Shown here: positions 3,532-53,005 of the stretch, piece by piece
Layout: each line of letters begins with the position of its first letter
Position numbering within the stretch: position 1 is the stretch's first letter
NCBI GenBank assembly: GCA_026023565.1
Contig: JAPETS010000013.1
Span: 372,001-436,000, forward strand
Source: Cirrosporium novae-zelandiae
Taxonomy: Eukaryota
Direction of reading: 5' to 3'
DNA: 64,000 nucleotides
Made by a program: the position numbers and the translations under genes
The notes under the pieces: model-generated
Told to the model about the DNA's origin: nothing
Database searches by the model: none
Seen by the model: the letters and a program-made list of their open reading frames with translations, nothing else

Positions 3532-6436
3532 ATGCCCTCGGTTTCCATCAACGATACCTTCCAACCACCCGCCTCCGCTGCAGCTGCATCTCCCCTTGAT
3601 TATATTCACTACGAAAAGTCATCGACGCCCACATCCCCTACCATCGCAGCATGGGCCTACGGTCATAGCTTGGACGAGAACGTCACTCAGCTCGATGGGA
3701 TTATCAAGAATGGGAAAAACACAAGCTTACACTCGCTACAGAACGGAGTACCAAGTGGAAACGCATACGGTCGAAGCAGAACTCGCTCACGGGCTGGAAG
3801 CCTACTTTCTCTTTCAAACGGCGATGGTCGAGTGATGGACGGTGAAAGAAAAATCACTGATCTAGGAGATGGTGCTTCAAAACATATTCCTGGAGATGGT
3901 TCCTACACCAGCGGCCAGATGAATGGATATGTTGTACAACCTAACTACCCAAAATCATCAAACGCGCCTGTACTCGTCAATGGAAACCATTCGGGCTTGC
4001 CCCGATCCCTTGATAAACATGTTCCAATGACAAACGATGTTCCCACTGAGGCGACTACTCCGATCATCGATGGGAAGGACACGCCCTCCCAAGAGAGCGT
4101 AGCTGAGCCCTATCCTCGTTCGCACCATTATTCTTCTCCTCCAGTCCTATCTTCTCCCACCGCAGCACCGGGTACAGCGACAGCATCGGGTTCATATTTT
4201 CCTCCAGCAGGTAGACTTACACATAGGCATACCCTTCAAGTCCCGAAACCTTCGGGGGGGCGTGGATCTCGGGAATTTCCCCCATCCAATGCCAATTCTT
4301 CGGATGATATTAGCGGTCGCCTTTCTCCACCAGCAACAGGCGCCAGAAGAGCTTCTCTGAGCCTAATGCGACGAACAACGAGATCTATACATTCAGATTT
4401 ACATCTAGATGAGGTACCACAAGATGACGATGCCGCTCGCTGGACCGAAGCCATCCGACAGAAACGAGCTAGTAGAAGAAGGCGTAAAGAGGAAGAAGAC
4501 GACGACAGAGTTATTGTGGGAACAAAGGTTGACCAGAACCATGTCAACTGGGTAACGGCTTACAACATGTTGACTGGGATACGGTTTACCGTCTCAAGAA
4601 CCAATGCCAAAATGGATCGCGAACTTACCGATGCTGATTTTGAAGCAAAACATAAATTTTCTTTTGATATGTAGGTCTTCATGGCTTCCAGCTTGACTGT
4701 TATTGCTGACGGCCTTCCAGTACTGGAAACGAACTGACGCCCTCTGCAAAATACGACTTTAAATTCAAAGACTATGCACCGTGGGTATTTCGACATTTAA
4801 GAGCCAAGTTTCAGTTAGATCCTGCCGATTACCTTATGTCGCTCACAAGCAAATACATTCTTTCAGAGCTAGGGTCTCCTGGCAAAAGCGGTAGCTTCTT
4901 TTACTTCTCTCGGGATTACAAATATATCATCAAAACGATACACCACGCTGAACACAAACTGCTGCGAAGAATCCTTAAGGATTACTATAATCATGTTGAG
5001 AATAACCCGAATACTCTAATATCACAATTTTATGGTCTTCATAGGGTGAAGATTGCATACGGTCGCAAGATACATTTCGTTGTAATGAACAACTTACTTC
5101 CCCCGCATCGAGACGTCCACCAGATGTTTGACTTGAAGGGGTCGACAATTGGGCGGGATTTTAGGGAGGAAGCCCTAACAGATAATCCAAGAGTGACACT
5201 GAAGGACCTGAATTGGCTTCGAAGGAATTATCATTTAGAACTGGGCCCAAACAAGAAACAAGTCTTTATTGCTCAGATGGAACGGGATGTTGCGCTCCTT
5301 CAGCGGCTGAAGATTATGGATTATTCTCTCCTTGTAGGAATCCATGATCTCACAAAAGGAAATGAAGAAAACCTAAGAGATAAAACGCTACAAGTGTTTC
5401 AACCCGGTGGAGATAGCGCCAATGATCCCCAACCGTTGACAAGGACACCCTCGAAGCTCGAAAACGCAAGAAAGGCGCGGGAATTGCGAGAGATTATCAA
5501 GAAAGAGAAACCAGTCCCAATGGACCAGAGTACTAGCAAGATGCCCGACGAGCTACTTGGAGAACGCAAAAATTTTATCTTCTATTCCGATGATGGTGGA
5601 TTTCAAGCTACTCATGAAGATGGACGACCCGGAGAGAAGATATATTACTTGGGAATAATTGATTGTTTAACTCATGTAGGTTCAGCTGTCTTGGTTTGTA
5701 TACTCGAACCTTACTAATGCCACTTTAGTATGGTACTGTGAAAAAGGCGGAACATTTTTGGAAAGGCCTATCACACGACAGCAAACAAATATCTCCCATC
5801 CCCCCAGAAGGGTACGGCGATCGGTTCGTGAAATTTATCAGTGGGATCACCAAGACTCCAGAAGAAGCCGAGAGAGAAAATGAGGCAGATGAGCAGGGAT
5901 TAGTATCTACTGACACTGTTCGCCGTCGCCATCGTGCTCTATCGAGCCTATCCAGATCATCCACCGACAAAGTCATGGAAAGGGCTGAGAAACAAGCCCA
6001 GAAGTCGGCTGATAAACGACCTTCATCGGAGGAGGACATTCCTGAGCGAGCTCTTAGTACTGCGCGTAGCCCCTCCGCGGAGCGATCAGGCGGTATTGCC
6101 GGGACTACACTTCCGGTGGTTGAGGAGGTGGGAGAAGCAGGAAGCACCGGAGGTCATAGCGGAAGGAGCAGGGATTCTATACCAGCAATGGGAAATGATC
6201 GTCGGGATAACCGCATACCGCCGCGTATGGACGGGACGATTCATCTAGTTAACGGTGATGAGGATGGAGGGGAGAAGCCAAGGCAACCTCCGCCCACGCC
6301 ACCGAAAGATCGATCACCACGGAACAAGCAACTGCCTCCTGTTCCACACCTAAATTCATCATTTAATAATACAACGGAACCTATATCTGAAGGGAGGGAA
6401 GCATCATGGCAAGGGAATATGTCAAGAAGGGGTTGA
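3532..6436 (+). CDS. MSS4: Phosphatidylinositol-4-phosphate 5-kinase, exons 3532-4670, 4721-5675, 5729-6436
   Basis: PIP5K motifs YNMLTGIR, FKFKDYAPWVFRHLR, ELGSPGKSGSFFYFSRDYKYIIKT, FDLKGS, IMDYSLLVG and YYLGIIDCLTHY. Two GT..AG introns join the three ORF-track pieces in frame. Confidence 0.96.
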
Positions 6437-6857: not shown

Positions 6858-8731
6858 TTCATCCAAAAAAAACCCTCCTTTTCTTCTTTTTCTTTCTTTC
6901 TTATTTTTTCCTCCTCTCAAAACCCACACACACATACAACAGCCCATTTCAGTTTCAAATACAATTCAGTCAAAACCGGTACGCACATATATAAAATACG
7001 TAATGGACGGCGAAAATGATTGCATCTAATTTTTTTTTTTCGTCCTCTTTTGTTTGGTCGAGTTTTGGGTGTTGGTGTTGGTCTAGACAGTCGAGCTGCA
7101 TTTTCTCTAAGGCTTTTTTTTACCTTCGAGGTTTCCGGTTGGGTGGGGGGGGGAAGGGGGGAGGGGGGGGATTGTTTTATTTTATTTTTATTTTTGTTAT
7201 GTTAATTGTTGTGTGGGATTGATTTGTGTGGTTGTGTTTGATCGTGGGGTGGGGTGGAGTGGGGCGTGGTTGTTTTTTGAATATTAGATGTTAGAAGGAA
7301 ATGTGAAGTGAAAGAAGCACAAGGAGAGAAGAAGAGGTTTAGGAGAGAATGAGAAACAAATGAAAAAAAAAATAAGACACATTTCCCTTGAAGAAAAGAA
7401 AAACTGGCAAGAACATATATGGATTTATTTCCTTTCCTTCCCTCCCCCCGCATGGCATGGTACATTAGTATTTAGCATTAGCATTGACATTGGCATTGGC
7501 ATTCATTATTCATTATTGGTATTTGATGTTGTTATTTGGTATAAGACCTAGGATCTAGGGCAATGCACATATACACACACATATATATATGTATATATTA
7601 TTTAGGAGCAGTTGAATGAATGGATGGATTGGATGGGTTTTTGGTTTTTTGGTTTTTTAGAGAGAGATAAAGATGTTTTAGGATATATACATATTTTTAT
7701 ATATATAGAGTTATAGGTAGGTAGTTATGCAAATATTTATATATATCTAGATTATGGTGATATGGTGATATAGTCTTTTGTTTGTTTTATTTGTGTATGT
7801 GTGGATAGGTGGGTGGATGTTTGAGGAGAAAGAGGAAGAAAGAGGGGGGAAAGGGAGGAAAGAGGAGGAAAGGGGGAGATGGGTGGAAGTTTTAGTGTGT
7901 GTGTGTGTATGTATCCGGATGTATCTTTGGATGGTATGTATGATTTGATCTTGATTTATTTATTTGATTTAATTTATCTGTATATATACTTGGGTTCAAG
8001 ATCAAGGTCAAGGTTGAATTTCGTTTTCCCACTCTTTCTTTTCTTCTTCTTATAATCTTACATATGTCTTATATCACCACCCCTCCCTCCTCCCTCTCTC
8101 TCCCTCTCTCTCCCTCTCTCTCCATACACATATCTACATTACAGCATAGCCAAATCATATCCCACATCCCAAACACTAACACTAAGTATACCGTATACCG
8201 TATACCGTACCCATCCGGCTCAAGTATTCAAGTATTGTAGACTAAATTGATGGATACAGTAATTATCTTACTAATTAGCCACGCCCATTTTGGGGGGGTT
8301 TTTGTGTTTAGTTAGGTAAGTAAGAGTAGTTGTTTTGTTGGTTTGGGGTTTTAATATGTGTATATGCATTAGATATGCAAACTAGATAGATGGTGCAAGT
8401 AATCTGATAGAAAAGAAAGAAGGAAATGCTTGGAATTTCATATGTAGGGTGACTAATATACTAATATAGTTGAGATTCCCAGTTTCATAGATAGAGGCTA
8501 TAGACCAGAGATACCATAAATGCAATAAAATGAAATGAACATCTCCTCCTTCCACTCCCATTTTTTTCTTTTTTCTTTTTTCTTTTTGGGAAAACCAGTT
8601 TCGTTAATTGATTGAGTAGAACTTGCTTGCAAGTGAGTAAAAAAAAAAACATTTAACGCTCGCTATTCATCCATTCATTCATTTGCAAATTTCTCTCCTT
8701 TCCACCTTTCACAATAATCATCACCATACCA

Positions 8732-10098
8732 TCACGCAAACACCCCACCCCTATTATTATAATATTCCCTCTCTGATTTCGACATGTTACTGAGATCATA
8801 CCTCTTCCCACCAATCTTGCCACCCTGACCGTACGCACTCGCATATGCCTTGAACGTATCCAGGAACATGCGCTGCGGGTTCCTCCCCTTGGGGGCCGTG
8901 GAGACGGTATTCGGATACATGGATTTGAGCTGCTCGAGGGGTTTTTTCCACTCGGGTAGGAACTCCTCGCTTGAGGAATCCGTAGCATCATCTTCTTCTC
9001 CTTCTTCTCTATCCATCTCCAGCAGCTCCTCAACCCCTTTCTCAACCCCATGCGGTCCTTTAATCTCGATATTGTGTTTCTTCGCTACCCGGACTACGTT
9101 TCGCATCCACTGGGTTTCCTTATCCTGGGAGCCCATTTCATCCCAGTTCCGCCCGAAGATGATGTAGAGGGCCATGATCAAACCGATGTTTTTCCGAACG
9201 ATGGCCGGGTTTTCGGAGAGCATGGATTGGCCTTTGGGGGTGTCGAAGATGATTGGGAGACCGGCTAGGAGGCCGCGCCCAATTAGGTTTACCGTGTTGG
9301 CGTATTGGGGGCCTTCGGATCCCACTGCGGAAGGTGTTAGTGGTTTTGGGATGGGTGAGGGGGGAAGGGATCAAGGAGGAGGCGAGGACGTACTCCACCA
9401 TACGTCGCATACTCCGCCGTGGAGGAATATTGCTAGGCCTTTGGTTTGAGCCCATACGGCTTTGGGGTCTTGAGGTTTCTTTGCCACTTGTCGTTTGATT
9501 GCGGTTATCTAAAGTGAGTGTTCAAGGTATCGTTAGTCTAACCCATTTCTTCCTTTTCTTCTTCTTCCCTGGAACTCCGTATCACAATATGTTGTTATGA
9601 AAAAATGGCAAGATGTAAACATACAGCATTCTCCACCACCTCGCAAGACTCATAAGCATCATAATCGTTATAGAGGATTACACCCGCATAGTTCGAATCG
9701 CGCGCAATTAATGCTTGGTTTAGGCTTTTTAGGACTTGGAGACCCTCTCTGCTTATAACCCAAGGATGGTCTGGATGGAGATTCGCGGGCTGCCTGCAGA
9801 TACACTCGCGCTTGCCGCAGCCAGGTTCCTCATCTGATATGACTATTACTTCTTTTGGTTCATATTCATCGTCTTCTTCCTCGTCCTGGATGCCATTGGC
9901 ATGTTTTTCATTCTGTATGTCCTACAAGGGTCGACAAACGGTGACCCATTCCGGCTGGAGGGTTTCTGGGAGAGAATTATTGGTGTTAGAAGAGGATTCA
10001 CCGCCAGAAACTTTTCTGGTTTTTGGAGCTGGAACTGATGGCGCTGGGTTGGAGCTGGTGGGGTTGGTCTCGGAGACGGTTCTCTTGGCTCGGGGCAT
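8732..10098 (-). CDS. Conserved-looking fungal hypothetical protein (~393 codons), exons 10098-9625, 9508-9394, 9324-8732, with one in-frame TAG at 9924-9922 (codon 59): recoded gene or young pseudogene
   Basis: MPRAKRTVSETNP...PEWVTVCRPL*DIQNE...CGKRECICRQPANLHPDHPWVIS...ARDSNYAGVILYNDYDAYESCEVVENA|ITAIKRQ...DVWW|MGSEGPQY...IGGKRYDLSNMSKSERE. Both introns have canonical donors (GTATGT, GTACGT), ACTAAC branch sites and YAG acceptors, and both keep frame. The TAG is the only lesion. Confidence 0.78.
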
Positions 10099-10965
10099 CT
10101 TTAGACAGGGTTGGTTTCGGAATTGTTAATTGGTGACTCTGGGTGAAATTGACTGTAAGTACATGTAAAATGGGATACAAAAGTTGAATGGATGGAACAA
10201 TGGAATTGAATATATGGAGGAGGTGAGATGAGATTGAGAAGGATACTGTCAACGCTATTATCCTTGACTTTTCTTGACACATCGACGCGTTTCGACGTGA
10301 CGAAATATGACCTCATAAGCGGTTACCATGCGCCAGAAATCGTGACCCTGTGAAAGTTATAATATATGTACAGTACAGCACAACAGTAAATACTTTCGCC
10401 CTTTTAAATCCAATTCAAAATAACATCCGGGAAGCTCAAAGTAAACATTGTTTACTATGGCACTATTTTGTATTTTCAATGGCAGTTTCAATCATTTAAT
10501 TGCTGGTTTAATTTTTTATCTGCTGTCACGTTCCATCTCGCATCCATCGTGCTAATCGTTCATCCTCCACATAATCGTTTATTCTTTTTTCCCATGCAGT
10601 CTTGATAATAAAAATGATTGAGCTGTCCTGTTCCATCCAGTATTGAATCCTTCAATATGCAATGTAGTTGTATGGCCGGCCATACTTTACTTCACGGAAT
10701 TATATATGACAGGTTATAGCTGTTGCTTGGCCCCCAACCCAGAATGGAAAAAAAATGCATGATACAAAAACTCCCATGATGGTCAAGACAACTAAATGAA
10801 CAATGATAATGCAATAAAAGGAAATGACGATACAAACGGAATACCCGATAAAATATCCCGGTCATGCATGCAATGCTAATAACACCGTAGAAGCAATCTG
10901 TCTTGTTGTTGGCTCGTCTATCGTGCGAGAAGATTCAATATTCGTTCTGTATTGATTTGGATCAC

Positions 10966-12862
10966 TCAGACTTTGCCCATGAGAGCAGTAACAACACTCC
11001 TCTTACTATTACCCACCTTTGATGATCCTCTCAATGGGAGGCTAATGATACTCCTCCTCTCGTCCTTGATGGTTGAAGCATGACTTGAAACTCTGCTCCC
11101 GGCATAACTTCCAGCTCTACTTCCCACTTCACTCCTCTCCCTATGGTTCCTCGAATGCTTGCTTCCGATCTGACTAACACTGTCACTAGGAGCAATGCTC
11201 GCCATATCATCGATATAGCAATCATCTCCCCCGATACTTTCAGGAACTACATCTTCCTTGATAGACATGTAAGAAGCGGCTGTTTTAGAAGTCTTGTGTG
11301 TAGCGTGTGTAGCAGCTGAGACACTAGACCCAGCTTTAGAAGGTGGAAGAGGAAGGTTCGCGGCGGAGACCGAGCGAGTGGTCGATACTCTGCCAGGAGC
11401 CTTTGACGAGACTCTAGAAGAGGCCTTGGTATATCTGGAGGACGCGTGGCTTTTTGGAAGGGACACTTGTGAGGCAGAAGGTGAGCTGGAACGTTTGTGG
11501 TGGGACTGTTTAATTGTTGCGGAGGAGGCCTCTGAACCTTGGTCCGAAGAAGCAACAGAGGATGATGATTGCGACTGGCTTCTATGACTGCTGGTAGTAC
11601 TACGACTAGGACTCATACGACGAGAACGATGGGAGTGGGCGGTCGAACGGCTAGAGCTGCGGATTGAAGAAGGATGGTGGGAGGAGCGAACGCTGACGAC
11701 AGTACCATGGCGAGAAGGCGCTTGAGATACACTCCGATTAGTCCTAGCACGACTGCGACTACGACTTCTACTTCTGCGAGAAGAACATGCGCTGGGAGCA
11801 CATCGACTGTGACTGCTCCGGTAGCTTCGGGTGCTATGCAGGCTGACGACGCTATTGTTACCAACAGCTGACTCTGGGTGAAGATAAACGCTATCAACAT
11901 CGGTTTCGGCCCTTGCGTATCTTGGCCTGTATTCAGATCTTGCGTCCGATCGAATCTCGGAAGGTGCGATAAATGAATCGACAATGGTACTTGGGCTACA
12001 AGGGTGTGGAGGTGGTGCTTCAATTGCACGCAATGGCAGTGGCTCCTCGACATGTGACATTGCATGAGAATTGGTGGGGGTCTGGTCTCGAATCATAGTC
12101 ACGCCCTGGATAAACTGTCCCATGGTAGGGACGAATTGATTCATTGCGGGAACGAAAGAATTTTGTGTGGAGGATTGAGATGCTTCGTGGGCCATAGGTT
12201 TCCCCTGCTCATTTTCCTCATCTCTTGTCATAGCATATGCCACCGCAGCGCCAGCAGCAGCACCCAAGAGTGTGCCGATGAGCGTCTTGACACCTTTGTC
12301 CTGATTTCTGTCGGATTGAGCATTTGACATGACGGTCTGTGGAACACTGGTAGCAATCGAGCGAGATCCACTTATGGAACGAGTCTCTTCTGGGGCATTA
12401 TATACCGATCTTGCTCCGACCTTGCTGTCGTTATCATCTGCTGAAGGATTATAAGCCGCTTCTATCGAGTTTCCATCAAAGTCCATAACGGCTGCACTAT
12501 AGTACCCCGAACTAGGATCTCTTATTGCCGGTTCGCCGTGAATTTGACCTCCCGCTTTGAGAGCGGAAGTAAAGAAATTATTCACTGCAGCTTTTGAACG
12601 GGCTGGAAAGGCAATGTGTGCAGCACCAGCTTTCGTTCTTCGGAAAGGATCATGTTAGCAAAATAGAATGTGAATAGTGAAAAAGAGATGCATACCCAGG
12701 AGTTTCTTGGCAGATAAAGAATTCGGGGTGGTCAACACCAAATCCAATCTGGTTTCCCTGCTGACCGATGTATCTGAAGCCTAGGGGTTGGAGGGCAGCA
12801 AGGAAGAAGGAGCAAGAGGTTGGGAGATGAGAAACTGTAAGACCAACGTGGGACACAGGCAT
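10966..12862 (-). CDS. Glyoxalase/bleomycin-resistance (VOC)-domain protein with long Ser/Arg-rich tail, exons 12862-12696, 12637-10966
   Basis: MPVSHVGLTVSHLPTSCSFFLAALQPLGFRY...HIAFPARSKAAVNNFFTSALKAGG...GEP...YYSAAVMDFDGNSIEA is a VOC-fold pattern. The intron GTATGC..GCTAAC..AAG joins ORFs 12650-12862 and 10966-12585. Confidence 0.85.
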
Positions 12863-18312: not shown

Positions 18313-19620
18313 ATGCCTTATACGGTTACAAGCTCATTCAAAAGGTATGTCAACACCTTCAGCAGCTCCCCAAGGCTTATTTACTAAATATATACTAGAG
18401 GTTTAATGATGCGCACTTACTCCAGGCCTATTCAACGCGTCCTCGGACCAGACGAGGATCGATTACGAAAAAAGCAAATTTCTCAGTATCGAGAGCACCA
18501 GGCCAGGGAATCCTATCGAGCCCCAGAAACTACGATCAGGAGCAACTTTCGTGAAAGTTCCAATGTCGATGCTTCAAGCCCTCAACCTCGGTCTGATACC
18601 TTTTCATCGGATATACCTGAAGTAGTGGCAAATACGCCACCGTCATCACCACCTCCTCGATCTGTGTCACCAAGAAATGCGATACGCAAGCACACATTCA
18701 CAACTCTAAAACGTAAACGCTCATCCGGTGTCGCATTAAAAGAAGTTAATGGAAATGGCTCCCGCAAATCAGGGCCATCAAAAAAGAAGCAGCGCCTTAC
18801 ACAAATGCAAATTGATTTGGGTGGGGAGACGCAACGGACGTGCAAAACATGCGGTATGGAATATGTTCCATCAAACGCCGAAGATGATGAACTGCATAAA
18901 AAGTACCACTCGCTGAATGTCGAGGGAGTTGATGTTGGGAAAACATTTGTCAATGAAACTGTGTCGAGGAGGATCTATCTCTCAAAAAGTCGAAAGGCGT
19001 CAACTTTAGATGCTGAAGGTTACATTGTGGTTATTGATCGGGGTTGTCCTGGAATGATTAAGAAAAAGGCCGAGAATGTACTGAATGTCGTCAATAAGGA
19101 ATTATCAGCAGTGGATATCGACGATACTCAACTATGGAGCGGAGTACGACCATCTAATTCAAGTTTAGATGAACGCAACCCTAAGATATCAACGAGAGAA
19201 AAAACGGAGGAAGACGAAAATTCGGAACAGGGACGATTCAAGATCTTTCTCCATATTAAAGGCAACAAATGTGTTGGATTATGCCTAGCAGAAAGCATTA
19301 AGCAGGCCTATCGAGTAGAAGAGAATAATGGAGGAGGACGGAGACCTTCAGCACATACAAGGGCAAAGAGCTCTTCGATATCTATTAGCAAGCAGGCAGT
19401 TCCAGGGATTGTGGGTATTTCCCGTATCTGGACTTCCAAATCCCATCGAAGGCAGGGCATCGCAGAAGCTTTGCTTGATAGTGCGCGGAGTTACTTTGTA
19501 TACGGGATGAAGGTTCCCAAAAAGATGATAGCATTCAGTCAACCAACTGAAAGCGGGTGTCGCCTGGCAGAAAATTGGTTCGGTGCTGGTAATGAATGGC
19601 ATGTGTATGCGGGATCCTAA
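18313..19620 (+). CDS. ECO1: Cohesin acetyltransferase Eco1/Eso1, exons 18313-18344, 18399-19620
   Basis: PIP-like QMQIDLG, zinc finger CKTCGMEY...HKKYH and acetyltransferase motifs VGLCLAE, GISRIWTSKSHRRQGIAEALLD and IAFSQPTESG. A short first exon MPYTVTSSFKR splices in frame. Confidence 0.94.
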
Positions 19621-32219: not shown

Positions 32220-33740
32220 TTACTTCTTCCTCTCCATCGTTCTCCTCGCCATCTCTTTCAATCCCTCTTTGGCGTCCCCTTCAGGCCAGCCAGAGATCGC
32301 CCTGACAGCTTTATTCGCGAAAGACTCTGCTAATGCTCGAGTCTTCTCCATGCCGTCGCTTTTCAGCACGATTTCTCTTGCCAGTTTCACATCGCCTGGA
32401 CCGCCGAACTTTCTGCCTACCAGCGCCCCCAGTTCTGGATGTGTTTCCCACGCGAACAGTAGCGGCGCGGTTGCCAGTCCGAGCTTGAGATCTGCTCCAG
32501 AGGGCTTACCAAGTACGGAAGCGGCCGAAGTATAGTCAAGCATGTCGTCGACAAGCTGGAAGGCAAGACCAAGGTTACGGCCATAGGTGTATGCGGCTTC
32601 GATGACTTCAGAGCTAGAGCCACCGAGGAGGGCTGCCGCACGGCACGACTTGCTGATGAGAGAGGCAGTCTTGAGATAGGTTTTTTGGAGGTAGTAATTC
32701 ATTGTTTCGGCCGAGTAGAGAGGATTTGATTCATCCAGGGCCGTATTTTGTAATTGCATGAACTCACCCTCGACAAGATTCGCGATAGCAGTGGCGAGAA
32801 GCTCGACGACTTCTGCATCACGGAGGCGGGCTAGAGCAACAGATGCGCGACCTAGCAGGAAATCGCCAGCTAACACAGCCATCTTATTACCAAATTGAAT
32901 GTTTGCAGAGGGTGAAGCTCGACGAGTGAGGGATACATCGATGACATCGTCATGAAGGAGGGATGCCGTATGAATGAGTTCTGTAATTTCAGCGAGGCGG
33001 CGTTGGGTTGGGAGAATTTCAGGGGAGGTAAGGGTACTTTGGTAAAGTGATTCAGTTGATGCGGAGGAGAGAGGCGAGGATGGGTTTAGGTCCGACAGTA
33101 TCGACGAGGGTGAGATAGGCTCGTTGACTTCAAAGGCAGCCGCAATATCATCTCTGCTTCCCATTCTAGCCCTCGACTGCTTACTCCTTAGATTTCCCGG
33201 CTCCCTGGGCGTCAACGCGGTAGCTCTTGACATAAGCAACACAATCAGCGGCCGCATATGTTTCCCCTCTGATTGCGTATAATATTTTGCCACCCGATCT
33301 AATAGTGGATGCCCTGACCCAAGTAATTGCTTCAAGTGTTTTGACAAGAACTTCATTTCCCCGCCCAGTATTCTGAACGGGTCAAAGTTCTTATTTTTAC
33401 CGTCGATTCCAAAGTCCTTGGCCGACGATGAATCAGCTGATGCGGCGGCTGCTGCTGCTCTTGCTGCTCTCGCTGCTGCTATTCTGGCGGCCGTTGCTCC
33501 AACCGCTGCAGCTGCAGCTCGACCAGGGAACGTTTTTGATATAACATTTTGCGCAGCGGAGACAGCGGATGCCCATGTTGATTGGTATCGCCGGCGGGAT
33601 GGATGGAAGTATATGTGACAATGTGAATTGCTCAATGAAGGGGGTAGGCGTTCTCGCAGACATGTAGAACACAATATCGACTTATATCTGAGAAGGGAAA
33701 GCGCAGGAATCGAGGGCGAAGCAGAGTAGAGGGGACTCAT
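32220..33740 (-). CDS. COQ1: Mitochondrial polyprenyl (hexaprenyl-type) diphosphate synthase
   Basis: GKHMRP, ELIHTASLLHDDVID (FARM), GNKMAVLAGDFLL, KTASLI, GLAFQLVDDMLD (SARM) and DLKLGLATAP. The N-terminus resembles a mitochondrial presequence. No intron is required. Confidence 0.95.
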   Translation of the reverse strand: MSPLYSASPSIPALSLLRYKSILCSTCLRERLPPSLSNSHCHIYFHPSRRRYQSTWASAVSAAQNVISKTFPGRAAAAAVGATAARIAAARAARAAAAAASADSSSAKDFGIDGKNKNFDPFRILGGEMKFLSKHLKQLLGSGHPLLDRVAKYYTQSEGKHMRPLIVLLMSRATALTPREPGNLRSKQSRARMGSRDDIAAAFEVNEPISPSSILSDLNPSSPLSSASTESLYQSTLTSPEILPTQRRLAEITELIHTASLLHDDVIDVSLTRRASPSANIQFGNKMAVLAGDFLLGRASVALARLRDAEVVELLATAIANLVEGEFMQLQNTALDESNPLYSAETMNYYLQKTYLKTASLISKSCRAAALLGGSSSEVIEAAYTYGRNLGLAFQLVDDMLDYTSAASVLGKPSGADLKLGLATAPLLFAWETHPELGALVGRKFGGPGDVKLAREIVLKSDGMEKTRALAESFANKAVRAISGWPEGDAKEGLKEMARRTMERKK

Positions 33741-34091
33741 GATCGCACGGGACGAAGTCGAGAGTATTTGTACAGCATGGATGTTTCAACTCCGGAACCT
33801 GCACTATGAGCAGAATAAATTTCGCAAGAAATTAAAGGAGCTGAGAGCAAATTTGAACGGTCAATTGGAGCGGAGTTGAAACCCGAGTTGACGTGCAGTT
33901 CACAAGTAGACATTTCTTCGTCGGAGAGAACTTTTGGGGTGAATCTCGCCAAGCTCATGAAGCACCGGTGTCAAGGTCATAAACGTCACCGTTGGGGCCA
34001 ATATAATTTGAATGATTGCTAATTACCCAGATAGGAGATTGAAGAAATATCAGGATCCATATGTTCAGTCTCCATTGAGCGGATTGTCATT

Positions 34092-35560: not shown

Positions 35561-36973
35561 TCACTGCGAAAGCGGATCCACGGCATAATCATTCCGCCTC
35601 ATGATGCCTTCGACAGGTCCAAGCAGTCTTTGAAAGCCAGCCTTACCGAGTTTTGCAACCTTGACTTCTGTCTTGCTGACTACACTTGCTGCACGAGGCT
35701 GATCATTAAGAAGTGCCAATTCTCCGAAGTAATCACCTTTTCTGTAAACCTTGACAGGATTTTCGGTACCAAGCTTGAATACTTCTGCTTCACCACTCTC
35801 AAGGATGAAGAATGAGTCTCCTGGGTCGCCCTGCCTGATAATGATAGTTCCGGCAGGGAATTTTTGTGTATCTAATGCATCTGCGATTTTGGAGCGCTCA
35901 TATGATTCGAGAGATGAGAGAAGGGGAACTTCGCTCAGGAATTGTTCATACATGCGGCGGCGAGTGAAAGCGGAGTCCATGAGGATTCGTCTGAATGTGA
36001 CACGATCAAGAGCCCATAGGGTACAGTTGGGCTCGGTTGAGATGACTGTTGCTGCACGAGGCGCGTTGTACATCAAAGCTAGTTCACCAAAAGATCCTCC
36101 GGGACCAATTGAAGCAACTTTGTTTCCCATTCCATCAGACCCTGCTTGAATAGAACCTGCGGGGTTCACGTAAACATCAAACTGGCCTCTCTCAACCACA
36201 TAGAAGAAGTCTCCGGCATCACCCTGAATGATGACCTTAATATCCTTTGCAGGTATTGGCTTTTCCACTAGAGCGCCGAGTATTTGATGAAACTGCTCAT
36301 CGTCGAGATGAGAGAATAGAAAATTGGTAGCGACAGCAGACTTCAGGCGAGAGAGCTGTTCTTGGGTTTTTGGATGAGATGGTGGATTCCACGTGCCATT
36401 TGACTGTGAGGTAGGATTCATCGATTCCGCTGAGACTGAGGTTCGGCGACCCAAGGCGTAATTGGATGGAAGACCTCCTGTAGCTCCTTGGGGAAGAGTA
36501 CCTGAGGTCCCTGCTGGGTTTAAGAAGGATGTTCCGCCAAACGGGCCTTCAAAGATGCCATCTCCTCCGAATTGGAAGGATGAAACTTCCTCCTGCGATT
36601 GAGTGCTTGAATGATTGATCATGTTGTTTCGAAACTTGTGGTTGGTAGGGGAAGCTAGAATATCATTTTCTTCCTCTTCATCTAACCTCTGCATGTTTCG
36701 TGAAGGACTATCCTTTCTACCACCGAAGGCGAAGCTGGAACTGGAACCGAAAGGATTATTACCAGGGAAAGTACTAGCGGACATTGGAGCGTTGCGGGAT
36801 GATTTTGCACTGGAGGATTGATCCTGGAGCGAAAGAAGATGTTCGACCCGTTGAGATTCGAGGCGACGGTTAAAATAATTGGCACAGAATTGAAGGATAT
36901 CGTCAGGTTTGTTTTCCAGGACTTGGCGATTCAGAGTGTTGAGTTCGTGAGTGTAGGTATCAGGGAGCGACAT
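35561..36973 (-). CDS. pkaR: cAMP-dependent protein kinase regulatory subunit
   Basis: Dimerisation/docking domain (ELNTLNRQVLENKPDDILQFCANYF), inhibitor site RRTSVSAES and two cNMP-binding domains (FGELALMYNAPRAAT, FGELALLNDQPRAAS). The start is placed at ATG 36973 because ATG 37096 lies in a probable 5'-UTR intron (37254-37036). Confidence 0.95.
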   Translation of the reverse strand: MSLPDTYTHELNTLNRQVLENKPDDILQFCANYFNRRLESQRVEHLLSLQDQSSSAKSSRNAPMSASTFPGNNPFGSSSSFAFGGRKDSPSRNMQRLDEEEENDILASPTNHKFRNNMINHSSTQSQEEVSSFQFGGDGIFEGPFGGTSFLNPAGTSGTLPQGATGGLPSNYALGRRTSVSAESMNPTSQSNGTWNPPSHPKTQEQLSRLKSAVATNFLFSHLDDEQFHQILGALVEKPIPAKDIKVIIQGDAGDFFYVVERGQFDVYVNPAGSIQAGSDGMGNKVASIGPGGSFGELALMYNAPRAATVISTEPNCTLWALDRVTFRRILMDSAFTRRRMYEQFLSEVPLLSSLESYERSKIADALDTQKFPAGTIIIRQGDPGDSFFILESGEAEVFKLGTENPVKVYRKGDYFGELALLNDQPRAASVVSKTEVKVAKLGKAGFQRLLGPVEGIMRRNDYAVDPLSQ

Positions 36974-38347
36974 GAATGTGTTGTCGGAGGGGAAGAGGGA
37001 AAGAGGAGTAGTCAAAGTAAGTTTGGTGTAAGGCTCTGGGGATGGATGATTAGCTTTGTTGTTAGCATGACAGGCACCTCCAAGGGGAGGCACCATAGGA
37101 AAAGGTAAGAAAAGGGCAAAGAAGCATCAAGGAACCGAGGAAACTAGTTGATTAGTTTGTGGTGGGAAAGAACAATGATTGAATGAATGGAATTTGACTC
37201 GATGAATTGAATGGACTGGTGGCAGTATTTCAGGTGGGGCTTCTTTCAACTTACCCTTCACTCCGTTCGGCCTCTTCTCTCAAGCGTGTGGATCAACACT
37301 GCAGCTTGACGTTTCAGCAGCTTTTTTTTCTGCCGTATGTTTCCACCTTGTTGAACTAAATTATAAAGATGGGTTGGTGATGAAATATCGATGCAAGGGA
37401 ATCAAAAGGAGTTTTTGTAGTCGAGGGGGGGGGGAGGGGCGTCGGGCGCTGAAAGGGTTTTTATGCCAGTTTAGGGGAGTTATTAGACGAGATTAAATTG
37501 AATTTTTTTTTATGAGATTTATGAGAATTATTGGCTTGTGCTTTTCTGATGAATTAATAGGTTTCAGGGATTAGATAGATAGGTAACAAGTTAGATGAGG
37601 GAGGGGGGGGGAAAGGGAAAAGCAAAGAAGACAGGAGAGCAAGAAGAGGGCAGTGGCCAAAAGTGTGGACAGAGAGCTTCTTAAGGCTCCTTCTTGGGTC
37701 ATTCTTCGCCGCTTCTGTCAGAATCTGTGCGTACTCTTTGTCTGGGTTCATTCGTTGCAACGATCGACAGATAGACAATCCGTTCCACTATGCCTCTACC
37801 TTTTCTACCCAACTCACCCAACCTAATTAACCCTCTTTATACCTACAAATGAGTCAATGGCTAGTCGAGACATTATAACTGTAGTGGTCTGCTATTCTTT
37901 CTTTCTTTCTTTCCTTTCAACATGTGGTGCGGGGAAAGAAGTGGTGGTCATCGCCTAATGCCTCATCGACATCATCTTCTTCCCCGTTTTCTTTTATTCC
38001 AGGGGTTCCCCTTCCACAGCTTTTCTAGAATTTCTAGAATATTTCCTAACCCGACCCATCCAAGCCATCCCAAGCCATCCGTGCCATCCAATTTCCTTGT
38101 CCGACAGGTTCCCTATGTCATACACTTTGCCCTGCTTCCTTTCTTTCTCCACATCGTCTACACAGCACCACCATAGCCAATCCATTTCCACCTAAGCTCA
38201 AAATCCTATTAAACTATAACTATCCATCACTTTCATTCCACTGGAACAATAGATAAAAAAAATATAGGACAAACTTATTATTAATAAATCTACATTCACA
38301 TTAGGCCGCCGCTATTTATTATCATACATGTGATATTGACATGTTCT

Positions 38348-46078: not shown

Positions 46079-46202
46079 CCATTCCTATGGTTGCTTTTCT
46101 GTTCATTGATTGAACCTCTCCATAACCTACAGTCGTATTTACAGCACTTTATAGCAGCAGCTCCATACAATTACAACACCTATCGCCTCTCTGATATCCA
46201 TA

Positions 46203-47876
46203 ATGGCTTTCAATATACCAGTTGGCGATGGGTACCCTACACCTACTCCCTCCCCGCCCACCGAGCCTGCCTTCGATACCTCTCCCATCACCGTCTTAGC
46301 TTCTTCTCGTGCTGTTGTCTCTGGAATTCTTACTCCCGCAACAATTGTAATATCTACCACCTCTGGAAAGATCTCTTCGATAACTCGTTCCATTCTCCCA
46401 CCTTCAGAATTTCCATCAGGAACTCCATATGTTGACCACTCTCCACATATACTTTTTCCTGGGCTTGTCGATGCACATGTCCATCTTAATGAACCAGGCC
46501 GGACAGAATGGGAGGGGTTTGAGACAGGCACAAAGGCTGCAGCTTTCGGAGGTGTTACCACTGTGATTGATATGCCGCTTAATGCCATTCCTCCGACTAC
46601 CACCGTCAATGGGCTAAAGGAGAAGATAAAGGCAGCACAGGGCCAGTGCTGGGTCGACGTCGGTTTCTACGGCGGCATTATCCCAGGCAACGCTGGTGAA
46701 CTCAAGGCTCTCGTGAATGAAGGTGTCAAGGGATTCAAGGGATTTTTGTGTGATAGTGGTGTAAGTTCATATAATTTGTCAATAACACAAAATGACACTT
46801 ACTCAAAAATGGCTGTACAGGTTCCGGAATTTCCTGCCGTATCCTCCAAGGACATTGCGAAAGTAATGACAGAACTTGCTGACATGCCGACAACTCTCAT
46901 GTTCCACGCGGAGATGATTCCTCCGATTGCCGATTCTGTGGGAGACACCATTTTGCATTCGGAAGCTCCTCTAGCTCCAAAAGGCCCGCTAACATCTTAT
47001 TCGACCTTCCTCCAGTCCAGACCTTCGTCCTTTGAAACATATGCTATATCTCAGGTCCTGTCATTAGCATATCTTGCTCCAAACCTCCCACTCCACATTG
47101 TACATCTGTCTGCCATTGAAGCAATTCCTCTGCTACGGGAAGCACGAGCCAATGGAGTCAACATTACAGCAGAAACATGTTTCCACTATCTCAGCTTAGC
47201 GGCGGAAAATGTCGCAGAAGGTGACACCCGTCACAAATGCTGCCCACCCATCAGGACGCAGGCAAACCAGAATGGCCTATGGGACGAGGTCCTACGGGAG
47301 GTGAAAGGTGGTACCGGTGACGGAGTCATAAAAACTATTGTTTCGGATCATTCACCATGCACGCCAAACTTGAAGCTACTACCTTCATCGATGGCAGCCC
47401 TTTCGGGAGAAGACAGACATGTACATACACATGGTCTCCCGCCTACTCCTCCCAATGAAAGTCACGAGGCACAGGGTGACTTTTTTTCCGCCTGGGGCGG
47501 TATTAGCAGCGTGGGTCTTGGTCTTCCAATTCTCTGGACCACAGCTATTTCACGCAAGCAGCCGCTCACTCCCGAGTCAGTTGTGCAGTTCTGCTGCCAG
47601 AACACTGCCAGGCAAGTGGGACTTGAGCATCAGAAGGGTGACTTGGCAGTTGGATTGGATGGCGATGTTGCTGTCTTTGACGACGAAGCGGAGTTTGTAG
47701 TCGGTAGAGAGGAGATGCTCTTCAGAAATAAATGTTCACCATATCAAGGTATGAGGTTGAAGGGTGTGGTCAAGGAGACGTGGGTTAGAGGTAGGAAGGT
47801 GTTCCAGCGAGGAAAGGGCTTTATAGGAGCTCCAGGTGGCCAACTGTTGCTGGAGAAACGAACAATTAAGGTATGA
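46203..47876 (+). CDS. DAL1: Allantoinase (amidohydrolase superfamily), exons 46203-46760, 46821-47876
   Basis: PGLVDAHVHLNEPGRTEWEGF, AAAFGGVTTVIDMPLN, FHAE, HIVHLS, ETCFHYL, KCCPPIR, SDHSP and AWGGISSVGL. A 60-nt GTAAGT..CAG intron sits in frame between DSG and VPEFP. Confidence 0.95.
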   Translation: MAFNIPVGDGYPTPTPSPPTEPAFDTSPITVLASSRAVVSGILTPATIVISTTSGKISSITRSILPPSEFPSGTPYVDHSPHILFPGLVDAHVHLNEPGRTEWEGFETGTKAAAFGGVTTVIDMPLNAIPPTTTVNGLKEKIKAAQGQCWVDVGFYGGIIPGNAGELKALVNEGVKGFKGFLCDSGVSSYNLSITQNDTYSKMAVQVPEFPAVSSKDIAKVMTELADMPTTLMFHAEMIPPIADSVGDTILHSEAPLAPKGPLTSYSTFLQSRPSSFETYAISQVLSLAYLAPNLPLHIVHLSAIEAIPLLREARANGVNITAETCFHYLSLAAENVAEGDTRHKCCPPIRTQANQNGLWDEVLREVKGGTGDGVIKTIVSDHSPCTPNLKLLPSSMAALSGEDRHVHTHGLPPTPPNESHEAQGDFFSAWGGISSVGLGLPILWTTAISRKQPLTPESVVQFCCQNTARQVGLEHQKGDLAVGLDGDVAVFDDEAEFVVGREEMLFRNKCSPYQGMRLKGVVKETWVRGRKVFQRGKGFIGAPGGQLLLEKRTIKV

Positions 47877-51392: not shown

Positions 51393-53005
51393 TTATAGAG
51401 GTAGGGGGAAGCTGCCAGCCCATGCAGCGATTTCCTTTTTGAGTTCCACAATATCAGGGACCTCGCCACTTGCGACTTTGGCCTTGAAATCCTTTAGTCT
51501 GTTGGCTTCCTTTGGAAGCTTGCTTTGCACATCCTTGCAGATCGCAATTGACTTGTCGATGTATCTAGCAACGCGCTTGAAGTCGTCTTCGCTCATACCT
51601 CTTGTCGTCATGGCTGGTGCACCGATACGGATACCGCATGGCGTAAGAGCGGATTTGTCTCCTGGAATCGAGTTCTTGTTGCAGGCAATGTTGATTTGCT
51701 CAAGAACGGCCTCGACGCGAGCGCCGTCGAGTTTGTGCTGTCGAAGGTCAAGAAGAACCATGTGGGAGTCGGTTCCGTCTGCGACTAATTTGTGGCCAAG
51801 ATGCTTGAATTCGACTTCGAGAGCCTTGGCGTTCTTGATGACTTGTTCCTGGTAGAGCTTGAATTCCGGGGTCATGGCTTGCTTCAAGGCGACGGCGAGA
51901 GCAGTGATGGTGTGGTTGTGGGGACCGCCCTGGTGGCCAGGGAAGACGGAGAAGTTGATGGGGCCTTCGAGGTCGTAGAGGACTTCCTTTCCTGACTTGG
52001 CGTCGGTCCTCCGGATTCCTTTCCGGAAAAAGATCATGGCGCCACGAGGGCCGCGGAGGGACTTGTGTGTTGTGGTGGTGACAATGTCAGCGTGTTCAAA
52101 GGGGGACGGTATCACTCCAGCAGCAATCAAGCCGGAAATGTGAGCCATGTCGACTACAAGGTATGCGCCAACAAGGTCGGCGATCTTGCGCATACGAGCG
52201 TAGTCGATAAGACGGCAATAAGCCGATGTGCCGGCCACGAGGACCTTGGGACGATAAAGTTGGGCGTTTTGTTCCAACTGGTCATAATCAATAATGCCGG
52301 TTTCGAGGTTAACTCTGTAGGGGAGGGTTTCGAAGTAGGTGGAGACGGCAGAAATCCTAGAATAAACATTACGGTCAACTATACTGTTTCCAGTGGCTTC
52401 AATTGGAAATTTCTCTAGATGGCATGAACATACTTCTTCTGCGGGGTTTGGTATCCATGACTCAAATGTCCACCATGAGGCAAATCCAAGCCCATCAATC
52501 TGTCATGCGGCCTCATAATAGCCTGGTACACCTCCAAGTTTGCGGGACTTCCGCTCAAACACTGTACATTTACGCCCCATTTCTCTGAGTCTAAACCGAA
52601 AGCCTTCAATGCGCGTGCCTGACATGTAAGCTCAATGGCATCAATGTGTTGGTTTCCACCGTAGTATCGTGCACCTGGGTAACCCTCGCTATACTTGTTG
52701 GACATGGGTGAGCCCAAGGCATCGAAGACGGCTCGAGACGTGAAGTTTTCAGAGGCAATAAGGACAATGGATTCGCGTTGGCGTTGGATCTCATCTTTCT
52801 ACTTGAAATTTAATACTCAATATTGAGGAGAAGAGAAAAATTGTTCGTACCATTATCTTGGCCACTTCAGGATCAATCTCTGTGAGAGGCTCCTCCATGA
52901 GCTATAGAAGAGAATATTAGCATGGCCTAGGAATTTCATAGAGCTTGGGATGCTCTGAATTCAACTCACGTTCTGGTGAGACTTTGGAAGTGCGTAGGTC
53001 GCCAT
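51393..53005 (-). CDS. SHM2: Cytosolic serine hydroxymethyltransferase, exons 53005-52970, 52901-52851, 52798-52434, 52356-51393
   Basis: [48 protein letters not shown]-lysine motif [13 protein letters not shown] and FPGHQGGPH. No mitochondrial presequence ([12 protein letters not shown]). Confidence 0.96.

What the first reader, a model, noticed from the sequence alone, without database searches (positions are those of the whole stretch)
8732..10098. Intact three-exon gene with one in-frame TAG: candidate for stop-correcting A-to-I mRNA editing (UAG to UIG, read as Trp)
Seen: from ATG 10098 the frame reads 58 codons (...PEWVTVCRPL), hits TAG at 9924-9922, and then continues about 335 more codons through two canonical, frame-preserving introns with no other lesion. 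The continuation includes a Cys/His cluster (CGKRECICRQPANLHPDHPW). The next in-frame ATG is only at the exon 2/3 junction. Established: in Fusarium graminearum and Neurospora crassa, sexual-stage A-to-I editing converts premature UAG to UGG so that some genes work only during fruiting. The reported preference is U at -1 and purines at +1/+3, and the context here (U-A-G-G-A) fits. Inference: the ancestral codon is TGG (CRPLWD; from memory, related fungal hypothetical proteins have an aromatic residue there), so this could be a developmentally switched gene. If this organism lies outside the lineages where such editing is documented, it would extend the phenomenon. Alternatives: a recent nonsense mutation (CpA to TpA on the + strand, also the RIP signature), a sequencing error, or TAG acting as an intron acceptor. 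I see no good in-frame donor or branch site for the last option.
Basis: partly seen in the sequence, partly recalled or inferred. Interest (0 to 1): 0.8.

Follow-up and report, generated by a model that had tools for sequence, protein, structure and literature searches.

The report
Stop codon inside conserved fungal gene
A fungal gene of unknown function carries one real stop codon where its relatives mostly have tryptophan; it is most likely an ordinary knocked-out gene, and repair by RNA editing is possible but untested.

Summary
A three-exon gene on the minus strand (ATG 10098, stop 8732) has a single in-frame TAG at 9924-9922. A separate assembly of the only public run holding this DNA reads the same, at depth about 348.

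A public protein, named by its source as a Cirrosporium novae-zelandiae MAG protein, is this gene exactly, with a 27-nt "intron" (9939-9913) removed. That intron is an annotation artefact: it deletes VCRPL*DIQ, the core of a motif conserved across a Pezizomycotina-wide uncharacterised family.

At the TAG position, 51 of 77 aligned homologues have an aromatic residue and 18 have Trp. The nearest tree neighbours with a residue there have Trp. So TGG to TAG is the likeliest origin.

Editing itself could not be tested: no RNA run, no genome and no relative above about 40% identity were available. The "fitting" context is nearly automatic for any UAG. No significant hairpin is predicted. The lineage lies outside the classes with documented editing, and no sexual morph is known.

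This copy also departs from family-conserved residues more than 87 of 89 other representatives. A distant homologue carries a plain TAA allele one codon away.

Best reading: plain nonsense allele (about 0.62). Restorative editing: about 0.17.

The parts
9625..10098 (-). Exon 1 (158 codons, counting the TAG). It encodes the conserved N-terminus MPRAKRT, a low-complexity and acidic stretch, the Cys/His cluster and the start of the helical domain.
   Evidence: homologue alignments.
9922..9924 (-). In-frame TAG, codon 59.
   Evidence: The same letters stand in the Logan contig of run X1 at depth 347.6.
9919..9951 (-). Conserved motif E-W-V-T-V-C-R-P-L-stop-D (residues 50-60), which spans the TAG.
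   Evidence: In alignment A2 (11 homologues), C55, P57 and D60 are invariant and R56 is at least 90% conserved.
9913..9939 (-). The 27-nt GT..AG stretch that the public gene model treats as an intron. It removes VCRPL*DIQ. Judged an annotation artefact.
   Evidence: P0004 equals the window's CDS minus this stretch, letter for letter. It has no branch-site-like motif, and its donor matches GTAAGT at 4 of 6 positions. The two real introns are 116 and 69 nt.
9760..9819 (-). Cys/His cluster CGKRECICRQPANLHPDHPW (residues 94-113), a possible metal-binding site.
   Evidence: C99 and P109 are invariant, and C101, P104 and W113 are at least 90% conserved, in A2. Metal binding is inferred and was not tested.
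9509..9624 (-). Intron 1, 116 nt, GTATGT...GACTAAC...TTTAG.
   Evidence: The splice reproduces the public protein.
9394..9508 (-). Exon 2 (115 nt).
9325..9393 (-). Intron 2, 69 nt, GTACGT...CACTAAC...CGCAG.
8732..9324 (-). Exon 3, ending in TGA at 8734-8732. It encodes the rest of the helical domain and the C-terminal GG..D motif.
   Evidence: The AlphaFold2 model has pLDDT above 90 over most of residues 100-290 in P0004 numbering.

Best explanation
The gene belongs to a Pezizomycotina-wide protein family of unknown function. Family members share an MPRAKR N-terminus, an acidic linker, a Cys/His cluster and an all-helical domain.

In this genome a single G-to-A transition, most likely TGG (Trp) to TAG, has put a stop at codon 59. 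As written, the mRNA would yield only a 58-residue peptide. The next in-frame ATG lies about 140 codons further on, past the Cys/His cluster, so re-initiation could not rescue the protein.

I read this as an ordinary, fairly young loss-of-function allele (a unitary pseudogene or strain-level null) in a fast-evolving, dispensable family. The public gene model hides the stop inside a spurious 27-nt intron.

Shown here: the stop, its position within a conserved coding motif, the artefactual intron, and the Trp or aromatic state in relatives. Inferred: that the stop is not recoded.
For: - The TAG is real in the DNA, as far as it can be checked.
- The public protein P0004 is the window's CDS minus 9939-9913. 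That stretch holds the invariant C55, P57 and D60.
- Of the 84 frame-preserving GT..AG pairs in exon 1 that would remove the TAG, all 47 of 200 nt or less lack a branch-like motif 8-45 nt from the acceptor. None of those donors matches GTAAGT at more than 4 of 6 positions.
- The copy looks relaxed. It keeps the family residue at only 24 of 36 occupied conserved columns, third lowest of 90 representatives (median 0.84). One example is Glu where 95% have Gly in the Y-G motif. Its terminal branch is 1.24 against a median of 0.72.
- Plain nonsense alleles do occur in this family. Metagenome loci L017 and L022 carry TAA where L018 and L019 (98.6% identical DNA) have TAC. The site is one codon after the aligned position.
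- Trp codons are a normal nonsense target. W to TAG makes up 5-12% of all one-step nonsense paths in this CDS.
- Passages read in PMC11156358 and PMC11087585 confine documented fungal mRNA editing to Sordariomycetes plus one Pezizomycete. It was not found in Aspergillus nidulans or Botrytis cinerea.
Against: - Apart from the TAG the gene is undamaged: 334 downstream codons stay open and both introns keep canonical GT, ACTAAC and AG signals. So the lesion is either young or tolerated.
- A TAG at an ancestral Trp is exactly the form taken by most editing-corrected stops in Fusarium (PMC10776026, passages read). Only 5-12% of random nonsense hits would look like this.
- The low conserved-column score and the long branch could simply reflect an isolated lineage with no close relatives sampled.
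- No RNA or second-strain data exist to show that the stop is not recoded or that it is private to this strain.
Confidence: 0.62

Rival explanations
1. Restorative A-to-I mRNA editing. UAG would be deaminated to UIG and read as Trp in some developmental stage, so the gene is a conditionally active premature-stop-correction (PSC) pseudogene, as in Fusarium and Neurospora.
For: - The single TAG sits in an otherwise intact gene.
- Trp is the likeliest ancestral residue. W occurs in 18 of 77 rows with a residue and is the commonest of the residues one step from TAG (W 18, Y 6, S 6, L 4, E 3, Q 1).
- W occurs in 6 of the 11 closest homologues.
- The nearest tree neighbours that have a residue at this position carry W: P0007, P0008 and P0044.
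- In F. graminearum, TAG stops at the 71 PSC pseudogenes derive mainly from TGG. Most of those genes are Pezizomycotina-specific. Premature stops at PSC sites were also seen in other classes, where editing is undetermined (PMC10776026, passages read).
- Editing arose at least twice, in Sordariomycetes and in a Pezizomycete (PMC11087585, passages read).
Against: - No RNA data exist.
- The -1 U and +1 G are inherent to UAG, so only +3 = A is informative.
- Local folds are no more stable than shuffles (z 0.18, 0.51, -0.29). The A sits in a loop only in the 41-nt fold and in a closing pair in the 61- and 101-nt folds.
- The Ame1-Tad3 interaction needed for editing is reported to have arisen within Sordariomycetes. 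Editing was not found in a eurotiomycete or a leotiomycete (PMC11087585 and PMC11156358, passages read).
- Xylobotryomycetes group near Eurotiomycetes or Dothideomycetes, and Cirrosporium has no known sexual morph (PMC6712537, passages read).
- None of the 35 distant metagenome loci has TAG at the aligned codon.
- This copy departs from conserved family residues.
Confidence: 0.17
2. Translational readthrough of the UAG by a near-cognate or suppressor tRNA yields some full-length protein.
For: The frame stays open for 334 codons after the stop. Nothing else supports this reading.
Against: - The downstream context is GAC AUA. It is not one of the leaky contexts I recall (CAR-YYA after UAG); that motif is recalled, not taken from a call.
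- No tRNA gene of any kind lies in the window.
- There is no excess of TAG-split frames in the window: 5 TAG against 21 TAA and 18 TGA among 44 frame pairs. So there is no sign that TAG is reassigned.
Confidence: 0.05
3. The annotated 27-nt intron (9939-9913), or another intron, is really spliced out, giving a protein that lacks VCRPL*DIQ.
For: - The stretch has GT..AG ends and is a multiple of 3.
- The public model uses it.
Against: - The gene's two evident introns are 116 and 69 nt. Both have GTATGT or GTACGT donors and ACTAAC branch sites.
- The 27-mer has donor GTTTGT and no branch-like motif.
- It would delete C55, R56, P57 and D60, which are invariant or nearly so in the closest homologues.
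- None of the 47 frame-preserving alternatives of 200 nt or less looks better.
Confidence: 0.03
4. The TAG is a sequencing or consensus artefact, or only one allele of a mixed population in the sample, and functional TGG copies exist.
For: - The genome is labelled a MAG by its source.
- Only contigs could be laid, not reads, and contigs drop minor variants.
Against: - A second assembler's contig agrees at word depth 347.6 with no differences over 9520-10300.
- Neighbouring housekeeping genes have long intact frames with full-length Pfam matches.
Confidence: 0.05

Closest known systems
[quoted passage not shown]
   Same: - One in-frame TAG in an otherwise intact gene.
- The gene is lineage-restricted to Pezizomycotina and has no known domain.
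- Trp is the likely ancestral residue.
- The annotation is troubled by the stop.
   Different: - No RNA evidence of editing exists.
- The organism belongs to Xylobotryomycetes, where editing has never been examined.
- No sexual morph is known.
- The stop could not be shown to be shared with any relative.
Ordinary unitary pseudogene or strain-level nonsense allele
   Same: - A single transition-type nonsense change at a nonsense-prone codon.
- The family is fast-evolving and multi-copy.
- A second, plain TAA allele occurs in a distant member.
- The copy is unusually divergent at conserved sites.
   Different: No second lesion has accumulated, so it is either young or still under some constraint.
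Gene-model artefact: a micro-intron placed by a predictor to step over an in-frame stop
   Same: The public model excises exactly 27 nt around the TAG using GT..AG ends.
   Different: Homology here shows directly that the excised codons are conserved coding sequence.

Membership tests
Fungal restorative (PSC) A-to-I editing target | Genomic in-frame UAG in an otherwise intact coding sequence | tested here: met
   one internal stop at codon 59 of 393, with both introns canonical.
Fungal restorative (PSC) A-to-I editing target | A-to-G difference between RNA and DNA at the stop's A | not testable with these tools
   No RNA holder was listed for the locus. Only DNA contigs could be laid.
Fungal restorative (PSC) A-to-I editing target | The organism has the stage-specific mRNA-editing machinery (Tad2/Tad3 short isoforms and an Ame1 able to bind Tad3) | not testable with these tools
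   No genome is held for this window. The literature places this innovation in Sordariomycetes (PMC11087585, passages read).
Fungal restorative (PSC) A-to-I editing target | The post-editing residue (Trp) is the ancestral or a tolerated state at the site | tested here: met
   W occurs in 18 of 77 rows with a residue, and F, W, Y or H in 51 of 77. W occurs in 6 of the 11 closest homologues. The nearest tree neighbours with a residue there carry W (a quick tree with SH-aLRT support only).
Fungal restorative (PSC) A-to-I editing target | Favoured sequence and structure context (U at -1, purine at +1 and +3, A in a hairpin loop) | tested here: inconclusive
   The context is U-A-G-G-A, but -1 and +1 are fixed by the codon itself. 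The folds have z 0.18, 0.51 and -0.29. The A is in a loop in one of the three folds and in a closing pair in the other two.
Fungal restorative (PSC) A-to-I editing target | The stop is retained at the same site in related species | tested here: inconclusive
   No relative above about 40% identity exists in the libraries searched. None of the 35 distant metagenome loci has TAG at the aligned codon, but these are too distant to count as a test.
Spliceosomal intron (the annotated 27-nt one) | Length and signals like the organism's other introns (a GTAnGT-type donor, a CTAAC branch site, AG) | tested here: not met
   It is 27 nt against 116 and 69 nt for the real introns. Its donor is GTTTGT and it has no branch-like motif.
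Spliceosomal intron (the annotated 27-nt one) | Removal leaves the conserved protein intact | tested here: not met
   Removal deletes C55, R56, P57 and D60, which are invariant or at least 90% conserved in A2.
Unitary pseudogene or nonsense allele | A disabling change in a gene whose homologues are intact | tested here: met
   259 family hits at E up to 0.001, and the aligned homologues read through the site.
Unitary pseudogene or nonsense allele | Signs of relaxed constraint | tested here: inconclusive
   The copy matches 24 of 36 conserved columns, third lowest of 90, and has a long terminal branch. It has no second lesion. dN/dS cannot be computed without close relatives.
Uncharacterised Pezizomycotina family (MPRAKR N-terminus, C-x-C...HP.H.W cluster, YNDF.GYG..EV.EN motif) | Significant full-length sequence similarity and shared motifs | tested here: met
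   phmmer E-values from 2.4e-42 down the list; motifs. No Pfam family covers the core. A SAP domain is found only in P0013 and P0014.
Programmed stop-codon readthrough | A leaky stop context or a suppressor tRNA | tested here: not met
   UAG is followed by GAC AUA. No tRNA lies in the window. The leaky-context motifs are recalled, not taken from a call.

The most novel reading that the evidence does not exclude
The UAG is corrected to a Trp codon by A-to-I mRNA editing in a xylobotryomycete. That would be a third, probably independent, ascomycete lineage with restorative editing. It would also occur in a fungus with no known sexual morph, implying either cryptic sex or editing tied to another stage such as pycnidial development.
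Probability: 0.15. Interest if true: 0.7.

Novelty: new member of a known kind. Interest (0 to 1): 0.3.

Why it matters
If the plain reading is right, the result is small but concrete. A public gene model is wrong: a 27-nt pseudo-intron hides a nonsense codon. A Pezizomycotina-wide family of unknown function gains a documented natural null allele.

If the editing reading were right, it would widen the known taxonomic range of fungal stop-correcting mRNA editing. The reviews I read call that range an open question. The locus would then offer a single-amplicon assay for editing in this class.

The case also suggests a cheap genome-wide screen. Annotated micro-introns that contain an in-frame TAG at a conserved Trp would mark candidate editing sites in any fungal assembly.

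Tried and rejected
- **Whole-genome search of the window's own assembly.** No genome is held.
- **RNA evidence.** No RNA holder was listed for the locus. Only one DNA run holds it, and it is kept as contigs. Contig cover stops at 9520, so 8600-9519 was not covered.
- **Close relatives.** Three word-index protein searches found only the public copy of this gene and one distant Grosmannia protein. The exhaustive phmmer search found nothing closer than 36% overall identity. So neither a shared TAG nor dN/dS could be tested.
- **First metagenome scan.** The 30-row alignment had no stretch conserved enough to search with. The 12-row alignment worked.
- **RIP.** The gene has TpA/ApT 0.65 and (CpA+TpG)/(ApC+GpT) 1.27, like the rest of the window. 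By the thresholds I recall (above 0.89 and below 1.03) this is not RIP-like.
- **TAG reassignment.** Rejected: among 44 same-frame ORF-stop-ORF pairs of at least 55 codons each, only 5 are TAG.
- **Suppressor tRNA.** None found in the window.
- **Function.** No Pfam family matches the gene. ESM Atlas hits all scored below 0.9. Foldseek against the PDB found nothing at E up to 0.001. The best VIA-align Z was 9.4, to designed helical repeats, which is below the level meaningful for helical proteins. The fold is generic all-helical and the function remains unknown.
- **Earlier findings of this scan.** Nothing on this genome or sequence. One unrelated dinoflagellate case turned up.
- **Careful tree search.** It did not finish in 288 s, so the quick tree was used.
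- **Cross-check against the 71 Fusarium PSC genes.** I listed the supplement of PMC10776026 but did not open its tables, because I had no Fusarium member of the family to look up. Those tables may bear on whether this family is a known PSC family.

Full report
**What is there.**
- On the minus strand an ATG at 10098 opens a frame of 58 codons (MPRAKRTVSE...PEWVTVCRPL). The frame meets TAG at 9924-9922 and then continues.
- Exon 1 ends at 9625. Intron 1 (9624-9509, 116 nt) and intron 2 (9393-9325, 69 nt) both have GTAnGT-type donors, ACTAAC branch sites and AG acceptors.
- Exons 2 (9508-9394) and 3 (9324-8732) complete a 1182-nt CDS. Its only internal stop is codon 59.
- After the TAG there is no in-frame ATG until the exon 2/3 junction.

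**Is the base real?**
- Only one public run holds this DNA. It may be the source of the assembly, and it is kept as contigs.
- Its Logan contig covers 9520-10300 with no difference, at word depth 347.6.
- That rules out a slip by one assembler. It does not rule out a minority allele.
- The surrounding window carries ordinary housekeeping genes with long intact frames and full Pfam matches: PIP5K, an ESCO-type acetyltransferase, polyprenyl synthetase, the PKA regulatory subunit, an amidohydrolase, SHMT, RPA34 and a CLP1/NOL9-like kinase. So the region is not degraded.
- RIP indices are normal for the gene (0.65 and 1.27) and for every 4-kb block of the window.

**What the public record says.**
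- The only close hit in the 5.8-billion-protein collection is a 384-residue protein. Its source names it [quoted passage not shown].
- It equals the window's spliced CDS, letter for letter, once 9939-9913 is removed.
- So the annotator stepped over the stop with a 27-nt GT..AG "intron" that deletes VCRPL*DIQ.
- The species is placed in Xylobotryomycetes.

**The stop lies in conserved coding sequence.**
- An exhaustive phmmer search found 259 family members at E up to 0.001. The closest is 36% identical.
- Named members come from Talaromyces, Paecilomyces, Fonsecaea, Glutinoglossum, and Peltula and Piccolia MAGs, and from Grosmannia. This is a Pezizomycotina-wide family.
- No Pfam model covers the core. 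Two members add an N-terminal SAP domain.
- Homologues share the start MPRAKR.L.E.D.N, which validates the ATG. They also share the motif [EK][WFY][IV]T.CRP.xD, which spans the TAG.
- In the 12-row alignment, C55, P57 and D60 are invariant and R56 is at least 90% conserved. All four fall inside the "intron".
- Of the 84 frame-preserving GT..AG pairs in exon 1 that would remove the TAG, all 47 of 200 nt or less lack a branch-like motif at 8-45 nt. None of those donors matches GTAAGT at more than 4 of 6 positions.
- The micro-intron is therefore an artefact. As written, the gene is interrupted.

**What stood at the site before.**
- I aligned 150 rows: 149 homologues plus the public copy. Seventy-three have a gap at the column and 77 have a residue.
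- The residues are F 24, W 18, Y 6, S 6, D 5, L 4, E 3, H 3, V 2, T 2, and Q, N, I and M once each.
- Among residues whose codons are one step from TAG, W leads: 18 against Y 6, S 6, L 4, E 3, Q 1 and K 0.
- Among the 11 closest homologues the column reads W 6, D 4, E 1.
- I built a quick maximum-likelihood tree of 65 of the 150 rows, choosing mostly full-length ones. It puts this gene next to P0005 and P0007 (SH-aLRT 90), in a group with P0008 and P0044. The members of that group with a residue at the site have W, V or T. The D/E clade is separate.
- So TGG to TAG, a G-to-A transition, is the most likely history.

**Does that make it an editing site?**
- Passages I read state that fungal stop-correcting editing turns UAG into UGG. 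F. graminearum has 71 such pseudogenes, and their TAGs derive mainly from TGG (PMC10776026).
- Editing prefers U at -1, A or G at +1 and +3, and hairpin loops (PMC11156358).
- Here the context is U-A-G-G-A. But -1 U and +1 G belong to every UAG, so only +3 = A is informative.
- Folds of 41, 61 and 101 nt are no more stable than shuffles (z 0.18, 0.51, -0.29). They place the A in a loop once and in a closing pair twice.
- A random nonsense hit in this CDS would be W to TAG in 5-12% of cases, depending on the transition bias assumed. So the form of the lesion favours editing over chance by roughly tenfold at most.

**Evidence against the editing reading.**
- The Ame1-Tad3 interaction needed for editing is reported to have arisen within Sordariomycetes, and the Pyronema case is treated as an independent origin (PMC11087585, passages read).
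- Genome-wide editing was not found in Aspergillus nidulans cleistothecia or in Botrytis cinerea apothecia (PMC11156358, passages read).
- Xylobotryomycetes fall beside Eurotiomycetes or the Dothideomycetes-Arthoniomycetes clade, and the sexual morph of Cirrosporium is unknown (PMC6712537, passages read).

**Signs of decay.**
- The copy keeps the family residue at 24 of the 36 conserved columns it occupies. That is third lowest of 90 representatives (5th percentile 0.67, median 0.84).
- It has Glu where 95% of members have Gly, and Asn, Ser and Glu where 81-89% have Asp.
- Its terminal branch is 1.24 against a median of 0.72.
- This fits relaxed constraint. An isolated lineage with no sampled relatives could look the same.

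**Related DNA.**
- One scan of metagenome contigs gave 35 loci.
- Wherever the motif is recognisable, the aligned codon is a sense codon: W in L001, L002, L003, L007, L008, L009, L024 and L026, and R, Y, D or E elsewhere. None of the 35 loci has TAG there.
- L017 and L022 carry TAA where L018 and L019 (98.6% identical over 2245 nt) and L016, L020 and L021 carry TAC. In an ungapped alignment that codon is the one after the TAG position.
- TAA is the allele used as "uneditable" in the Fusarium experiments (PMC10776026, methods passage). So this is a plain null allele, and it shows that such alleles occur in the family.
- The near-coincidence of position is noted but unexplained.

**The protein.**
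- An AlphaFold2 model built from a 65-row alignment has mean pLDDT 79.9 and pTM 0.78. The first 85 or so residues are disordered, and an all-helical domain runs from about residue 105 to 380.
- Foldseek found nothing at E up to 0.001.
- VIA-align's best matches are designed helical repeats at Z 9.4, below the level that is meaningful for helical proteins.
- Atlas hits were all below 0.9.
- The conserved C-x-C...HP.H.W cluster may bind a metal, and some relatives carry a SAP domain. Together these hint at a nuclear, nucleic-acid-associated role. That is inference only.

**Verdict.**
A real TAG replaces a probable Trp codon in the conserved core motif of a Pezizomycotina family gene, and the public model hides it.
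- The most probable mechanism is an ordinary, fairly young nonsense allele that is not recoded (about 0.62).
- The alternatives are restorative A-to-I editing (about 0.17), readthrough (0.05), a minority-allele or sequencing artefact (0.05) and real micro-intron splicing (0.03).
- Nothing available here can separate the first two. The decisive data are cDNA and gDNA from the same material, or a genome-wide count of TAG at conserved Trp positions in this assembly.

Noticed in passing
L017:1441-1443 and L022:140-142, against L018/L019:1441-1443: A distant family member in metagenome contigs has a TAA allele (two contigs) where near-identical contigs (98.6% DNA identity) have TAC (Tyr). The codon is one after the position aligned to the window's TAG. 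It is a plain nonsense polymorphism. The closeness of the two sites is unexplained and may be chance.
   Followed up: partly
window 9620-9626, and the ends of the exon-1 matches in L001-L035: In many metagenome homologues the frame reads on past ...EVxEN as one residue and then V-S, V-G or V-C. This is what a GT donor looks like when read through, so the position of intron 1 appears conserved across the family. Several short library proteins (P0087, P0103, P0068) are exon-1-only calls that end there.
   Followed up: no
proteins P0013 and P0014 (homologues): Two members from black-yeast-type fungi carry an N-terminal SAP domain (Pfam E 2.5e-07 and 7.4e-09) ahead of the family core. This hints at a DNA- or chromatin-associated role.
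   Followed up: no
window 9520 (edge of the Logan contig): The re-assembled contig of run X1 begins at 9520 with 19 loose letters that look like a library adapter (recalled, not tested). The break in contig cover at 9520 is therefore probably technical.
   Followed up: no
window 10966-12654 (-): Directly upstream on the same strand lies a 562-codon open frame rich in Ser and Arg. It has only a sub-threshold glycine-zipper Pfam hit and was not studied further.
   Followed up: no
window 4710-6433 (+), 18388-19617 (+), 32223-33785 (-), 35564-37126 (-), 46155-47873 (+), 51396-52502 (-), 53577-54560 (-), 55875-57911 (+): The neighbouring genes are ordinary housekeeping genes with intact frames: PIP5K (split by a short intron), an ESCO-type acetyltransferase, polyprenyl synthetase, the PKA regulatory subunit, an amidohydrolase, SHMT, RNA polymerase I subunit A34.5 and a CLP1/NOL9-like kinase.
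   Followed up: partly
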